Made by a program: the position numbers and the translations under genes. 4,709 bases of DNA from Escherichia coli (GTDB lineage: Bacteria; Pseudomonadota; Gammaproteobacteria; Enterobacterales; Enterobacteriaceae), in NCBI RefSeq assembly GCF_003334785.1, contig NZ_QOWV01000045.1. One strand, written 5' to 3'. The notes under the pieces are model-generated. The model was not told the origin of the DNA. It ran no database searches and saw nothing but the letters and a program-made list of their open reading frames with translations. Positions 1 to 4,709 of the stretch are shown here, piece by piece. The first letter of the stretch is position 1; each line of letters opens with the position of its first letter.

Positions 1-71
1 GTGTATTTCTGGTCAACAACCAGTTGAGCGGATTCGCGTTTAAACTCTGCGCTAAAATTTCTTTTTTTCAT
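1..71 (-). CDS. IS3-family transposase OrfA (HTH subunit), first 23 codons only; the rest lies beyond the window start
   Basis: Minus-strand translation from ATG 71..69 gives [24 protein letters not shown]. This matches from memory the N-terminus of IS911 OrfA / InsN-type proteins (the SAEFK...AQLVV HTH lead-in). Too short to appear in the ORF track. Confidence 0.6.
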
Positions 72-143
72 TGGAGCACCTGTGTTGTTCTGAGGTGAGC
101 ATATCACCTCTGTTCAGGTGGCCAAATTCAGTGTGCCACTTCA
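1..143 (-). mobile_element. Left end of an IS3-family insertion sequence (IS911-like), cut by the window edge
   Basis: Read on the minus strand from position 143 the sequence begins TGAAGTGGCACACTGAATTTGGCC, a TG-initiated terminus typical of IS3-family inverted repeats. About 70 nt further in, an ATG (71..69) opens an ORF that runs off the window. The IS911 assignment is from memory. Confidence 0.6.
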
Positions 144-526
144 GTTTTTCACTGATATTCAGGGAACGGTTATGTGAGCTGAATATTCACAGAGGAAATA
201 CAGTGGTGCAGGTAACTCTGGCCTACGAAGCTCGGAAGTAAGCTGCCGGGCGGGGACGGAAGTCCCCGCTTTCCGGAAGTGTGAGGTATTTCAGGGGCAG
301 ACACCCTATATACCAGAAACAGCCGGTCCCGCCCGGGGCCGGCCCCCTGGGGCTAAGGCATTTCCAGCTTTTCAGTCATTTCATTATCAAAATCACATTA
401 AACGGCCGTAATCAGACATGATTTGTGCGCCAACACAGATCATCGTCACAACTTTCAAGTCGCTGATTTCAAAAAACTGTAGTATTCTCTGCGAAACGAT
501 CCCTGTTTGAGAATTGAGGAGGCGAG

Positions 527-2819: not shown

Positions 2820-2890
2820 TCAAACAGACTTGTTAAGCAGTCTTTCAGGGTGTAAGGTGAAGACCTGTTAAACAGTCTCAGAGGTGTGTT
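2820..2890 (+). promoter_or_regulatory. Candidate promoter/operator of the toxin-antitoxin operon with three iterated 9-mers
   Basis: Three copies of AA(A/G)CAG(A/T)CT at 2822..2830, 2835..2843 and 2870..2878, in the 70 bp upstream of the antitoxin ATG, with GAGG (2881..2884) as ribosome-binding site. Iterated sites overlapping the promoter are typical of autoregulated toxin-antitoxin operons. The promoter hexamers were not confidently placed. Confidence 0.35.
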
Positions 2891-3142
2891 ATGCCCAGTA
2901 TCATTTTGTCTGACACCAGTGCAAGCGTCAGTGAACTGAAAAAAAATCCAATGGCGACAGTCAGTGCCGGAGAGGGTTATCCTGTTGCCATTCTTAACCG
3001 GAATCAGCCTGCATTCTACTGTGTTCCTGCTGAATTGTATGAAAGGATGCTTGATGCTATGGATGACCAGGAGCTGGTGAAACTGGTTACTGAACGCAGC
3101 AATCAGCCACTACATGATGTGGACCTGGACAGTTATTTATGA
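2891..3142 (+). CDS. Type II antitoxin, Phd/YefM/StbD-like (83 aa)
   Basis: ORF MPSIILSDTSASVSELKKNPMATVSAGEGYPVAILNRNQPAFYCVPAELYERM... has the N-terminal pattern of Phd/YefM-fold antitoxins and an acidic C-terminal tail. Its stop overlaps the toxin start in ATGA (3139..3142), the classic toxin-antitoxin coupling. Confidence 0.8.
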   Translation: MPSIILSDTSASVSELKKNPMATVSAGEGYPVAILNRNQPAFYCVPAELYERMLDAMDDQELVKLVTERSNQPLHDVDLDSYL

Positions 3143-3426
3143 CTTATACGGTTAAATTCAGGGATGATGCCCTCAGGGAATGGCTGAAACTGGATAAATC
3201 CGTTCAACAACAGTTCGCAAAAAAACTAAAAAAATGCAGCGAAAATCCTCATATACCTTCAGCAAAACTACGTGGATTAAAAGATTGCTACAAAATAAAA
3301 CTTCGTGCATCAGGTTTTCGTCTGGTCTATCAGGTGATTGATGACATGTTAATTATTGCGGTTGTCGCAGTAGGTAAACGTGAACGTAGTCATGTTTACA
3401 ATCTCGCCAGCGAGAGAATGAGATAG
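3139..3426 (+). CDS. relE: RelE/ParE-superfamily toxin (RelE/StbE-like mRNA interferase, 95 aa)
   Basis: ORF MTYTVKFRDDALREWLKLDKSVQQQFAKKL...KLRGLKDCYKIKLRASGFRLVYQVID...VGKRERSHVY is closely similar, from memory, to E. coli RelE (KLRGMPDCYKIKLRSSGYRLVYQVID...VGKRERSEVY). Same length as RelE and 4-bp overlap with the antitoxin gene. Confidence 0.85.
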   Translation: MTYTVKFRDDALREWLKLDKSVQQQFAKKLKKCSENPHIPSAKLRGLKDCYKIKLRASGFRLVYQVIDDMLIIAVVAVGKRERSHVYNLASERMR

Positions 3427-3435
3427 GGGGTGTTA

Positions 3436-3981
3436 ATGCTTTTAAGTTTTAGTGAGTTAGATGTTCTTATTTATCAGGGGAAGGTTGGGGGTTTATTTCG
3501 TGAAAGAAAAAACGAAAGGATTGCTACAGACATTGATTCCAGAAACAAGTCATCATCAAGCAGTCATGAATATGATTCAGTTTTATCATTTCTATTTATT
3601 TGTGATAATGGAAAAGAAATAAATGTGAATTTAACAAATTGGAATATTAACATATTTCCAGGTCAAGAGATTGTCATTTATTTTGTGGAAAACTCAAAGA
3701 AAAACAAAAAAATACCATACATGATAAAAAACAAAAGCACATCGGAAGTGACTAATAATGTTCAAGAAATGTATAAAGAGTTTTTTTATACATCATACTT
3801 CAAACTGATAATACCTTTCCTTTTAATCATTTCTTACTTTATGTCATCCATATCTGTGGCTATCATGTCATTCGTTTTATATGTCATAATCAGAAGAAGA
3901 ATAGGAAAAGATTTCTTTTCAGAAATAAAAAGGAAAAGGTTAAAAAAAGAAGATATCATGGGGTTAGAGCACGTAATATAG
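3436..3981 (+). CDS. Hypothetical small membrane-anchored protein (181 aa from ATG 3436), AT-rich orphan gene of unknown function
   Basis: Uninterrupted 181-183 codon frame in DNA of roughly 25-30% G+C (by eye), where stop codons should be frequent. GGGGG (3425..3429) lies 6 nt before ATG 3436; GTG 3430 is an alternative start. The product has a polar N-terminal region with a Ser run, one long hydrophobic segment FKLIIPFLLIISYFMSSISVAIMSFVLYVII, then a basic tail RRRIGK...KRKRLKK. I recognise no family. Confidence 0.7.
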   Translation: MLLSFSELDVLIYQGKVGGLFRERKNERIATDIDSRNKSSSSSHEYDSVLSFLFICDNGKEINVNLTNWNINIFPGQEIVIYFVENSKKNKKIPYMIKNKSTSEVTNNVQEMYKEFFYTSYFKLIIPFLLIISYFMSSISVAIMSFVLYVIIRRRIGKDFFSEIKRKRLKKEDIMGLEHVI

Positions 3982-4028
3982 GGGCGACAGGTCCTTATAA
4001 GGGACCGTCCAGGGACCGGAGTTCCATT

Positions 4029-4070
4029 GCTACGCCGGAACCGCCGAAATTTCCGGCGTAGCTCTCTCTT
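4029..4070 (+). terminator. Candidate intrinsic terminator after the AT-rich gene
   Basis: Perfect 12-bp inverted repeat GCTACGCCGGAA (4029..4040) / TTCCGGCGTAGC (4051..4062) with a 10-nt loop, followed by the pyrimidine/T-rich tract TCTCTCTT. A second hairpin, GGTCC-TTATAAG-GGACC, lies at 3990..4006. The U-tract is weak, so the terminator function is tentative. Confidence 0.35.
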
Positions 4071-4088
4071 GCCTGGACGTTCTGTTGT

Positions 4089-4126
4089 GGGGGGTGAGGG
4101 CCAATGGAACGAAAGCGTACGGTAAG
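4089..4126 (+). mobile_element. Terminal inverted repeat (38 bp) of a Tn3-family transposon, Tn1000 (gamma-delta)-like; transposon interior lies to the right
   Basis: GGGGGGTGAGGGCCAATGGAACGAAAGCGTACGGTAAG matches from memory the Tn1000 repeat GGGGTTTGAGGGCCAATGGAACGAAAACGTACGTTAAG at about 34 of 38 positions. It also carries the Tn3-family hallmarks: GGGG terminus, TGGAACGAAA core, ACG..TAAG inner end. Orientation puts the element outer end at 4089. Confidence 0.65.
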
Positions 4127-4507
4127 GGCTCCGTTTGGGAAACGGACAATATTGTACGGTTGCGTTATCGCGGTAGGGTGTACTCCCGCGCTATACGGTG
4201 TTTTCAGGATAATTGGTCTTAATCGGATAACCTAAATGCGATACAGCAAGAGCGACAACTTAAAAGCGATTAAACCTGCCGCCGCCAGAACGGTACAGTC
4301 CCTGACACAGGCACCACTGGTATAATCCAGTAAAGAGCATATGGAGAACTTATCATGTCGTCACGCAACTCTATACATGATTTTATAATGCTGCTCCCGG
4401 CGCTGCTGTTTGTTGGTAAGCGTACAGCCTGAACCGTCTGGTCAGAATCTGACGAATTAGACAAAGTGGTGTCCACCAAATAAGTAGTGGGAACCAAAGT
4501 GTCAGAT

Positions 4508-4636
4508 ATGCAGAAAAATGTGACTCCCGGCAGGCGAAAAGGCTGCCCTAATTATCCTCCCGAATTTAAACAGCAGCTCGTTGCTGCCTCCTGTGAACCC
4601 GGGATATCCATCTCAAAACTTGCTCTTGAAAAGTAA
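4508..4636 (+). pseudogene. Short OrfA-like fragment of an IS3-family transposase (42 codons then stop)
   Basis: ATG 4508 translates to MQKNVTPGRRKGCPNYPPEFKQQLVAASCEPGISISKLALEK and stops. The (Y/F)xxEFK...V...SIS..A pattern is the N-terminal HTH lead-in of IS3-family OrfA proteins, which are normally about 100 aa. A TGAACCG motif 78 bp upstream (4430) resembles an IS3-type end. Weak evidence. Confidence 0.3.
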
Positions 4637-4709
4637 CCGGCTCATTTAAACCGTCTGGTCTGTTTCCTCCGGCTCTACAAAAATAATGTCCATCATTTTT
4701 AATGGACAC

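What the first reader, a model, noticed from the sequence alone, without database searches (positions are those of the whole stretch)
2891..4126. Stepwise compositional mosaic between the replicon and the transposon end
Base composition steps down from the antitoxin (about 45% G+C) through the toxin (about 40%) to the orphan gene (25-30%), then jumps to about 55-60% in the spacer and Tn3-type repeat. These values are by-eye estimates. The sharp steps at 3427 and 3982 suggest at least two independent acquisition events, so the orphan gene is likely a recent passenger rather than plasmid backbone.
Basis: seen in the sequence. Interest (0 to 1): 0.3.

Follow-up and report, generated by a model that had tools for sequence, protein, structure and literature searches.

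The report
AT-rich passenger gene beside plasmid toxin-antitoxin
A very AT-rich gene of unknown function sits between a plasmid's toxin-antitoxin pair and a stretch of mobile-element debris; the patchwork is real, but it is ordinary plasmid mosaicism that has already been noted in related plasmids.

Summary
Only one step is sharp. The jump at 3981/3982 beats all 2000 shuffles. The antitoxin-to-toxin step is not significant and occurs in every allele. The fall into the orphan cannot be placed by composition; the best split is about 3566.

Related plasmids do put a breakpoint at 3427. Six sampled plasmids without the orphan lose homology at the toxin stop codon and carry five different neighbours there. 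The orphan is in 91 of 636 plasmid records that hold this toxin-antitoxin pair, and in 93 of 5426 complete E. coli genomes, always on plasmids.

It is a real gene: pN/pS is 0.13, and homologues of 37-44% identity are equally AT-rich. Five of ten sampled relatives carry frameshifts in it. In the relatives sampled it travels with the last ~130 bp of the toxin gene and with the G+C-rich DNA up to at least 4012, so 3982 is not a junction in any of them. It occurs on several replicon types in four genera, so it is a passenger but not a recent one.

The repeat at 4088-4126 is a solitary Tn3-family end, and the orphan lies outside it. Interest is low.

The parts
2826..2878 (+). Two 18-nt direct repeats (AGACyTGTTAArCAGTCT) just upstream of the antitoxin. 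They are the likely operator and promoter region of the toxin-antitoxin operon.
   Evidence: Repeat search. The operator role is inferred from position only.
2891..3142 (+). Phd/YefM-type antitoxin, 83 aa, G+C 0.460.
   Evidence: Pfam PF02604, E = 3.7e-5. RefSeq names it 'plasmid stabilization protein / Phd-YefM antitoxin'. Composition.
3139..3426 (+). RelE/StbE (ParE-superfamily) toxin, 95 aa, G+C 0.392. Its start overlaps the antitoxin stop by 4 bp (ATGA).
   Evidence: Pfam PF05016, E = 1.5e-14. TIGR02385 scores 34.6 bits against a cut-off of 27.9. Composition.
3427..3435 (+). Junction and leader. It holds the orphan's own Shine-Dalgarno-like sequence; relatives read GGGGTGTAAATG, and the Salmonella homologue reads GGAGTGTAAATG. 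Homology with orphan-free plasmids ends here.
   Evidence: Junction alignment of 19 loci. Homology ends at 3425-3430. L009 leader sequence.
3436..3981 (+). AT-rich orphan gene, 181 aa from the ATG at 3436 (183 aa from the GTG at 3430), G+C 0.286. The model shows an N-terminal OB-like beta domain followed by two C-terminal membrane helices and a basic tail.
   Evidence: ORF list. pN/pS 0.13, with 17 of 25 variable sites at third codon positions. Homologues of 37-44% identity. AlphaFold2 model, pLDDT 71.8. No hit in Pfam, PADLOC, NCBIfam or PHROGs.
3982..4087 (.). G+C-rich (0.594) non-coding spacer with nested inverted repeats (4003-4013/4072-4082 and 4029-4040/4051-4062). It contains a 28-33-nt motif that recurs on plasmids of many genera.
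   Evidence: Repeats. RNA fold -55.3 kcal/mol, z = -3.2. In the rows listed, the full spacer lies only directly after the orphan, while the short motif is widespread.
4088..4126 (+). Solitary Tn3-family terminal inverted repeat (GGGGGG...TAAGGG). Its outer end faces the orphan and its inner end faces right. No partner repeat is present.
   Evidence: 87-92% identity to termini overlapped by genes annotated 'Tn3 family / ISEc63 transposase'. 28 of 38 matches to the Tn3 repeat recalled from memory. No second copy in the window or in the relatives.
4124..4270 (.). Non-coding segment found in more than 4000 plasmid records, including small ColE1-type Klebsiella plasmids. Its identity is not established.
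4265..4315 (+). 51-bp remnant of a different RelE/ParE toxin gene, the one that follows the IncFII repA gene in pO157.
   Evidence: 94% identity to L025 2001-2051, which lies inside that annotated gene.
4315..4416 (.). Backbone-like segment shared with IncI/K-type plasmids (the 'yaeA' region). It is the last stretch collinear with the uninterrupted relatives.
   Evidence: L005, L013, L014 and L015 are collinear to 4416.
4417..4709 (+). Left end of an IS66-family element (ISCro1) that interrupts the region. The exact start is uncertain by about 3 nt; a GTAAGCG sequence begins at 4414.
   Evidence: RefSeq annotation of the source plasmid. Loss of collinearity at 4416.

Best explanation
The interval joins a conserved 'replicon plus toxin-antitoxin (TA)' block to a variable accessory region.

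The StbD/StbE-type pair (Phd/YefM antitoxin, RelE/ParE toxin) is itself a moderately low-G+C module of about 41-43%. Its antitoxin is intrinsically richer in G+C than its toxin.

A single very AT-rich gene was captured once, right at the toxin stop codon. Its family is 26-29% G+C wherever it is found, so its composition is foreign to its hosts, and the donor is unknown. It kept only about 12 nt of its own leader, so it is probably read as the third gene of the TA operon (inferred). That one capture produces both the fall and the rise in G+C.

The gene then spread together with the toxin's 3' end and the G+C-rich spacer across several plasmid types. It stayed under purifying selection but is repeatedly inactivated by frameshifts. 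This is the behaviour of a dispensable passenger.

The G+C-rich DNA to its right is scar tissue from other events: a solitary Tn3-family end, a fragment of another toxin gene, and an IS66-family insertion.

The break falls exactly at the toxin stop because the DNA just beyond the TA pair is a hot spot for insertion and recombination, while the replicon-TA block itself is retained.
For: Composition.

Junction at the stop codon: six orphan-free relatives have five different right-hand neighbours there (acetyltransferase, fimbrial genes, a hypothetical gene, an autotransporter, and a roughly 198-bp Tn3-derived miniature element followed by an ATPase gene).

Single capture: the junction is identical in all 11 intact carrier loci, and the IS91-truncated L007 has the same left junction.

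Linkage: the last ~130 bp of the toxin gene are essentially invariant among carriers and differ in non-carriers. The two TA sub-alleles among carriers differ only in a central patch, which they share with the orphan-free plasmid L020. This patch comes from recombination inside the TA pair.

Real gene: pN/pS is 0.13. Full-length homologues of 37-44% identity have G+C of 0.26-0.29 and third-position G+C of 0.25-0.29, set in flanks of 45-51%.

Dispensable: there are three independent frameshifts (at 3699, 3706 and 3781) in 5 of 10 relatives. The protein collection holds truncated clusters of 115, 86 and 29 members against 268 full-length members.

Patchy distribution.

No promoter-like site lies between the toxin and the orphan. 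The orphan's ATG is 9 nt after the toxin stop.

Debris to the right.

Published precedent: a 3-kb, 41% G+C, five-ORF fragment with a 'novel StbD/E' pair next to the IncZ origin was described in pO26-CRL125 and pO111-CRL115 (PMC3817090).
Against: - No donor or transfer vehicle was found.
- The right-hand junction at 3982 rests on composition and on the lack of homology downstream of the Salmonella homologue. No relative has the spacer without the orphan, so the orphan and spacer may have arrived together.
- Co-transcription with the TA pair is inferred, not shown.
- Only 17 related loci were aligned in detail, out of 636 records.
- The 'hot spot' reading is drawn from six orphan-free loci.
Confidence: 0.7

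Rival explanations
1. The orphan is a working third component of the toxin-antitoxin (TA) module. For example, it could be a membrane effector or regulator expressed from the TA promoter, rather than a passenger.
For: - Its ATG lies 9 nt after the toxin stop, with a Shine-Dalgarno-like GGGGG sequence and no intervening promoter-like site.
- It is tightly linked to the toxin's 3' end.
- It is under purifying selection.
- The Salmonella homologue also lies next to RelE-superfamily (Gp49/HigB) and HTH antitoxin pairs. The third homologue is fused to 40 bp of that higB/higA junction and abuts a VapB-like antitoxin.
Against: - It is absent from about 86% of plasmids with this TA pair.
- It is frameshifted in 5 of 10 relatives by three independent mutations.
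- In Salmonella it sits about 250 bp from the upstream gene, behind its own AT-rich leader.
- The two distant contexts are related to each other, so they are not independent.
- PADLOC gives no hit.
Confidence: 0.1
2. The low G+C is not a sign of foreign origin. It follows from the protein's composition (a membrane protein rich in Ile, Lys, Asn and Phe) or from selection for AT-richness in a long-resident plasmid gene.
For: - Phe, Tyr, Met, Ile, Asn and Lys make up 45% of residues, and Gly, Ala, Arg and Pro make up 12%.
- All three diverged family members keep 26-29% G+C even though they live in hosts of about 50% G+C. This could mean the AT-richness is maintained rather than recently imported.
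Against: - Third-position G+C is also only 0.25-0.29, so synonymous sites share the bias.
- The family is tiny and patchy. A search of 1.84 billion representative proteins found only enterobacterial relatives, plus one protein from a sequencing run of unidentified source.
- Homology breaks exactly at the gene's edge.
Confidence: 0.12
3. The orphan was brought in as cargo of the Tn3-type transposon whose end lies at 4088-4126.
For: The orphan lies close to a true Tn3-family repeat. Another relative, L019, has a Tn3-derived miniature element inserted exactly at the toxin stop.
Against: - The repeat's outer GGGG end faces the orphan, so the orphan is outside the element (orientation rule from Tn3 biology).
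- There is no partner repeat.
- Carriers that have lost the repeat (L002, L006, L010, L011, L023) keep the orphan.
- The orphan's left edge carries its own leader, not a repeat.
Confidence: 0.03
4. The orphan ORF is not a gene, only an AT-rich spacer with a chance open frame.
For: It has no family assignment, and frameshifts are frequent in relatives.
Against: - pN/pS is 0.13, and 17 of 25 variable sites are at third codon positions.
- Full-length homologues of 37-44% identity keep the same length and the same membrane segment.
- The AlphaFold2 model folds with moderate confidence (pLDDT 71.8), and 115 AlphaFold-database proteins have a similar model (E <= 0.001).
Confidence: 0.02

Closest known systems
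Low-G+C StbD/StbE fragment next to the IncZ origin in pO26-CRL125 and pO111-CRL115 (Venturini et al. 2013, PMC3817090)
   Same: The plasmid neighbourhood is the same: a replicon, then a Phd-type antitoxin with a RelE-type toxin, then further ORFs without known relatives. It was described as a 3-kb, 41% G+C block bounded by recombination signatures.
   Different: I did not align those two plasmids, so I did not confirm that they carry this orphan. The paper treats the whole block as one unit and does not single out the 28.6% G+C gene.
Horizontally acquired AT-rich ('xenogeneic') accessory genes of Enterobacteriaceae
   Same: G+C is far below the host's, at all codon positions. The distribution is patchy, the homology break is sharp, the gene is found on mobile DNA only, and it is often inactivated.
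   Different: No donor, integrase or vehicle was identified. It is a single gene rather than an island. Silencing by H-NS was not tested.
StbD/StbE and RelBE-type type II toxin-antitoxin plasmid stability modules
   Same: The antitoxin comes first and overlaps the toxin by 4 bp. Pfam PF02604 and PF05016 both hit. TIGR02385 scores above its cut-off. The pair sits next to the replicon.
   Different: In about 14% of plasmids the operon carries an extra downstream membrane-protein gene. No activity was tested.
Solitary Tn3-family terminal repeats and Tn3-derived miniature elements (IS101-like, TIMEs)
   Same: A 38-39-nt repeat starts with GGGG and ends with TAAG. It matches the ends of annotated Tn3-family elements. 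A complete miniature element of about 198 bp occupies the equivalent position in L019.
   Different: In the window only one repeat survives, with no transposase, no resolution site that I could recognise, and no partner.

Membership tests
Type II toxin-antitoxin, Phd/YefM antitoxin with RelE/StbE (ParE-superfamily) toxin | The toxin matches the family profile above the curated threshold | tested here: met
   TIGR02385 scores 34.6 bits against a cut-off of 27.9. PF05016 hits at E = 1.5e-14.
Type II toxin-antitoxin, Phd/YefM antitoxin with RelE/StbE (ParE-superfamily) toxin | The antitoxin matches the Phd/YefM profile | tested here: met
   PF02604 hits at E = 3.7e-5. The NCBIfam model TIGR01552 scores only 13 bits, below its 20.8 cut-off, so the match is weak.
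Type II toxin-antitoxin, Phd/YefM antitoxin with RelE/StbE (ParE-superfamily) toxin | Two small genes in one operon, antitoxin first, with overlapping stop and start | tested here: met
   Genes at 2891-3142 and 3139-3426, with an ATGA overlap.
Type II toxin-antitoxin, Phd/YefM antitoxin with RelE/StbE (ParE-superfamily) toxin | The toxin inhibits growth and the antitoxin neutralises it | not testable with these tools
   This needs an expression experiment.
Horizontally acquired accessory gene | Composition deviates from the neighbours at all codon positions | tested here: met
   G+C 0.286, third-position G+C 0.29. Only 1.9% of comparable windows are this low. The jump at 3981 beats all 2000 shuffles.
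Horizontally acquired accessory gene | Patchy presence among close relatives, with a defined junction | tested here: met
   Present in 91 of 636 plasmid records and 93 of 5426 genomes. Homology ends at the toxin stop codon.
Horizontally acquired accessory gene | An identifiable donor lineage or transfer vehicle | tested here: not met
   Only three sequence types were found among 1.84 billion and 5.8 billion proteins: E. coli-type plasmids, Salmonella, and one sequencing run of unidentified source. None was found in phages. No integrase or flanking repeats were seen.
Recent (strain- or plasmid-specific) insertion | Little allelic diversity, and restriction to one plasmid lineage | tested here: not met
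   Up to 2.4% nucleotide divergence, pS 0.05. Present on at least four replicon groups and in four genera.
Tn3-family terminal inverted repeat | A repeat of about 38 bp, GGGG at the outer end and TAAG at the inner end, similar to known Tn3-family termini | tested here: met
   4088-4126 shows 87-92% identity to termini overlapped by genes annotated as Tn3-family or ISEc63 transposase. It matches the Tn3 repeat (recalled from memory) at 28 of 38 positions.
Tn3-family transposon (complete element) | A second inverted repeat, a transposase and a resolution system | tested here: not met
   No second copy was found in the window or in collinear relatives. There is no transposase ORF to the right.
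Integron gene cassette (promoterless ORF followed by an attC site) | Core sites GTTRRRY and RYYYAAC at the cassette boundaries | tested here: not met
   The boundaries, read directly, are GTTAATG (GTAAATG in all relatives) on the left and GTTCTGT / GTTGTGG on the right. There is no RYYYAAC at the 5' side of the hairpin.
Three-component toxin-antitoxin system | The third gene consistently occurs with the pair and stays intact | tested here: not met
   It is present in about 14% of plasmids that carry the pair. It is frameshifted in 5 of 10 relatives.
Known anti-phage defence proteins (PADLOC) | A profile match | tested here: not met
   No family matched the orphan, the toxin or the antitoxin at E <= 1.

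The most novel reading that the evidence does not exclude
The orphan family may be a previously unrecognised membrane protein functionally tied to RelE-superfamily toxin-antitoxin (TA) modules on enterobacterial plasmids. Its features are a cytoplasmic OB-like beta domain, a two-helix membrane hairpin and a basic tail, with 26-29% G+C in every known copy. One possible role is a membrane-acting abortive-infection or exclusion effector whose expression is gated by the TA promoter. Points in favour are its placement 9 nt after the toxin stop, its linkage to the toxin's 3' end, purifying selection, and the fact that its only distant relatives also sit beside HigB/HigA-like and VapB-like genes. The evidence does not exclude this reading. 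The gene's absence from most plasmids with this TA pair and its frequent frameshifts argue against it.
Probability: 0.1. Interest if true: 0.5.

Novelty: already known. Interest (0 to 1): 0.15.

Why it matters
It matters little beyond annotation. The analysis shows how a plasmid's replicon-plus-toxin-antitoxin (TA) block acts as a fixed left edge against which accessory DNA is swapped. It also shows that G+C steps alone misplace one junction (3427) and over-read another (3139). The one loose end of wider interest is the orphan family itself: a tiny, always AT-rich, plasmid-only family of membrane proteins with no assigned function, found next to TA genes.

Tried and rejected
- Integron cassette (ORF plus attC-like hairpin). 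Rejected because the core sites do not fit.
- A 6-bp target duplication, GGGGTG, at 3427-3432 and 4090-4095, which would imply insertion into a Tn3 repeat. Rejected because GG(G/A)GTGTAAATG is the orphan's own leader, conserved in the Salmonella homologue.
- The idea that the orphan is younger than the toxin-antitoxin (TA) pair because its pS is 0.05 against 0.10. Rejected as confounded: the extra TA divergence is a central recombinant patch, and the toxin's 3' end is invariant among carriers.
- An internal junction at about 3569 inside the orphan. Not significant on its own (407 of 2000 shuffles reach it). The mild 5' G+C excess is shared by all three homologues.
- A search for a function. 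Pfam, NCBIfam, PADLOC and PHROGs gave nothing. Phage genomes gave no match. PDB fold matches were only generic OB-like barrels at E >= 0.01. AlphaFold-database matches were uncharacterised membrane proteins of similar size, one of them labelled DUF4178.
- Rfam found only CopA and a weak repZ pseudoknot, both in the replicon. It found nothing in 2891-4709.
- An intrinsic terminator after the orphan. The scanner flagged none. The 12-bp hairpin at 4029-4062 has a 10-nt loop and only a weak T tract.
- CAI codon-usage scoring. It could not be run because the index module was missing. I used G+C by codon position instead.
- I could not identify the widespread segment at 4124-4270. The cer-like idea came from reading the sequence only and was not tested.
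Full report
**Source and layout.** The window matches E. coli plasmid pWP7-S17-ESBL-04_2 (NZ_AP022179.1) at 99.98% identity. From left to right it holds:
- an IS3 remnant and a hok remnant;
- an IncFII-type replicon: copB, the CopA RNA at 904-995, repA1 at 1068-1937, and the origin;
- a toxin-antitoxin (TA) pair: a Phd/YefM antitoxin at 2891-3142 (PF02604) and a RelE/StbE toxin at 3139-3426 (PF05016; TIGR02385 above its cut-off);
- an unannotated-function ORF at 3436-3981, here called the orphan;
- a G+C-rich non-coding stretch containing a Tn3-type repeat at 4088-4126;
- an IS66-family element from about 4417.

**Check of the observation.** Exact G+C is 0.460 for the antitoxin, 0.392 for the toxin, 0.286 for the orphan and 0.593 for 3982-4126. 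Every by-eye value was correct.

The orphan is low at all three codon positions (0.30/0.26/0.29). A 552-nt window at or below 30% G+C accounts for only 1.9% of such windows in 87 kb of related plasmid DNA.

The upward jump is exact. The best split of 3427-4126 falls at 3981, the last base of the stop codon, with G = 45.9, and no shuffle out of 2000 reaches that value.

The other two steps are weaker than claimed.
- The antitoxin-to-toxin difference is not significant (p = 0.096; 479 of 2000 shuffles reach it). It recurs in all 19 related loci measured (0.46-0.49 against 0.38-0.43). It is therefore a property of the gene pair.
- Composition does not place a step at 3427. The orphan's first 142 nt (37%) match the toxin (p = 0.7). 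The best split of 2891-3981 is at 3566.

**What relatives show on the left side.** The TA pair occurs in 636 PLSDB records. The orphan occurs in 91 of them at 95-100% identity. It is also in 93 of 5426 complete E. coli genomes, never on a chromosome.

Six orphan-free loci (L003, L016-L020) lose homology to the window at 3425-3430, which is the toxin stop codon. What follows differs among them: an acetyltransferase gene (in two of them), fimbrial genes, a hypothetical gene, an autotransporter gene, and in L019 a roughly 198-bp Tn3-derived miniature element inserted directly after the stop.

So 3427 is a real junction, but it is a junction of homology rather than a visible compositional edge. 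The DNA just beyond the TA pair is a general swap point.

**What relatives show on the right side.** No relative breaks at 3982. All carriers keep homology to at least 4012. L005, L013, L014 and L015 are collinear with the window to 4416, where the window's IS66-family element is inserted. Other carriers show different deletions further right:
- 4013-4163 and 4208-4314 are missing in L002, L006, L010 and L011;
- L004 ends at 4149;
- L012 ends at 4105.

The full spacer 3982-4090 is found in 38 records, and in the rows listed it lies directly after the orphan. Only a 28-33-nt motif (4030-4062) occurs elsewhere, on plasmids of many genera, and as an inverted pair in L019. This motif is probably the end of an insertion sequence or of a miniature mobile element.

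**The orphan is a real but dispensable gene.** Among nine alleles, 17 of 25 variable sites are at third codon positions and pN/pS is 0.13. This is similar to the toxin (0.12) and the antitoxin (0.09).

An exhaustive search of 1.84 billion representative proteins found only two distant relatives:
- P0018, 37% identity;
- a Salmonella protein whose full ORF is L009 5806-6342, 178 aa and 44% identity.

Both are 26-29% G+C, with third-position G+C of 0.25-0.28, set in flanks of 45-51%. The family is therefore AT-rich wherever it is found.

Five of ten sampled relatives carry one of three independent frameshifts, at 3699, 3706 and 3781. The protein collection holds large clusters of truncated products: 115, 86 and 29 members, against 268 full-length.

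The AlphaFold2 model (pLDDT 71.8) shows an OB-like beta domain at residues 8-107, then two membrane helices and a basic tail. It resembles many uncharacterised bacterial membrane proteins of similar size. PDB matches are only generic OB folds. Pfam, NCBIfam, PADLOC, PHROGs and the phage collection gave nothing.

**One capture, not a recent one.** All carriers share the same junction, TAG followed by GGGGTGTAAATG. The window alone reads GTTAATG there. The Salmonella homologue has GGAGTGTAAATG in front of its start codon. So the orphan kept only about 12 nt of its own leader. Its ATG lies 9 nt after the toxin stop, and no promoter-like site lies between them. Co-transcription with the TA pair is the likely consequence, but this is inferred.

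The orphan's synonymous divergence (0.05) is half that of the TA pair (0.10). At first this suggested a later arrival. The site-by-site table shows otherwise. Carriers fall into two TA sub-alleles that differ only in a central patch (about 3030-3290), which they share with the orphan-free plasmid L020. The last ~130 bp of the toxin gene are invariant in carriers and different in non-carriers. The TA pair is itself a recombinant mosaic, and the orphan is linked to the toxin's 3' end.

Carriers include IncFII/FIA/FIC, IncI-gamma/K1, IncB/O and IncK2/Z plasmids. They come from E. coli, E. fergusonii, E. albertii, Salmonella and Citrobacter. 'Passenger' is therefore supported, and 'recent' is not.

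**The G+C-rich side.** The repeat at 4088-4126 is a true Tn3-family end. It is 87-92% identical to termini overlapped by genes annotated as Tn3-family or ISEc63 transposase. It is solitary. Its outer GGGG end faces the orphan, so the orphan lies outside whatever element it once bounded. Carriers that have lost the repeat still keep the orphan.

To the right lie three more pieces:
- a non-coding segment (4124-4270) present in more than 4000 plasmid records;
- a 51-bp fragment of the different RelE/ParE toxin gene that follows repA in pO157 (4265-4315);
- a segment shared with IncI/K backbones (4315-4416).

This stretch is accumulated debris from several events. The whole neighbourhood is only moderately low in G+C (TA pair 0.41-0.48, acetyltransferase gene 0.40), with the orphan as a deep dip.

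**Comparison with what is known.** A 3-kb, 41% G+C, five-ORF fragment containing a 'novel StbD/E' pair next to the IncZ origin, bounded by recombination signatures, was described in 2013 for pO26-CRL125 and pO111-CRL115 (PMC3817090). The phenomenon is ordinary plasmid mosaicism plus an AT-rich acquired gene.

**Verdict.** The finding is real, its numbers are right, and its interpretation is half right. Interest is low. The only open thread is the function of the orphan family. Its position beside TA genes in both of its known settings allows a functional link, but its absence from most carriers of this TA pair and its frequent inactivation make a link unlikely.

Noticed in passing
L019 3062-3259 (NZ_CP024238.1): A roughly 198-bp miniature element bounded by inverted gamma-delta-like Tn3-family repeats sits immediately after the toxin stop codon in an orphan-free relative. 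This is the same site where the orphan is joined in the window.
   Followed up: partly
window 4265-4315: A 51-bp remnant, 94% identical, of a different RelE/ParE toxin gene. That gene follows the IncFII repA gene in pO157-type plasmids.
   Followed up: partly
window 4124-4270: A non-coding segment found in more than 4000 PLSDB plasmids, including 5.9-kb ColE1-type Klebsiella plasmids. It is not annotated in the records looked at. It may be a multimer-resolution-type site, but this was not tested.
   Followed up: partly
window 4030-4062; L019 5083-5105 and 5292-5313: A 28-33-nt motif (CTACGCCGGAACCGCCGAAATTTCCGGCG) forms the core of the spacer hairpin. It recurs on plasmids of Vibrio, Serratia, Pectobacterium, Robbsia and others, and as an inverted pair about 210 bp apart in L019. 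It looks like the end of an insertion sequence or miniature element.
   Followed up: partly
window 2826-2843 and 2861-2878: Two 18-nt direct repeats, each internally palindromic (AGACT...AGTCT), lie just upstream of the antitoxin start. They are the likely antitoxin operator.
   Followed up: partly
window 3030-3290 (toxin-antitoxin (TA) pair), compared across L004, L005, L012 and L020: The TA alleles are themselves recombinant mosaics. One carrier sub-allele differs from the other only in a central patch, which it shares with an orphan-free plasmid.
   Followed up: yes
L009 4355-6686 (Salmonella enterica, GCA_020954575.1): The orphan homologue lies inside a VirB-type type IV secretion gene cluster, between virB4 and virB5/virB6. 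It comes after two toxin-antitoxin-like pairs and before a small AT-rich lipoprotein gene (6345-6686). Together they form a roughly 1.2-kb island of 25-33% G+C.
   Followed up: partly
L008 (Logan run ERR4338330, 1207 bp): The contig's two ends overlap by about 30 nt, so it is a circular unitig. Its orphan homologue is fused at the 3' end to 40 bp of the higB/higA junction seen in L009, and it overlaps a VapB-like antitoxin gene.
   Followed up: partly
window 3432-3438: The window reads GTTAATG where all other sampled carriers read GTAAATG. The window's orphan allele is also the outlier of the set, 1.6-2.0% from all others.
   Followed up: no
window 1-241: The start of an IS3-family orfA lies on the minus strand (1-71). 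A truncated Hok/Gef-family ORF lies at 131-241, to the left of the replicon.
   Followed up: no
window 4487-4636: A 49-aa ORF lies inside the left end of the IS66-family element. By eye it resembles the start of an IS3-type transposase orfA. This was not checked.
   Followed up: no
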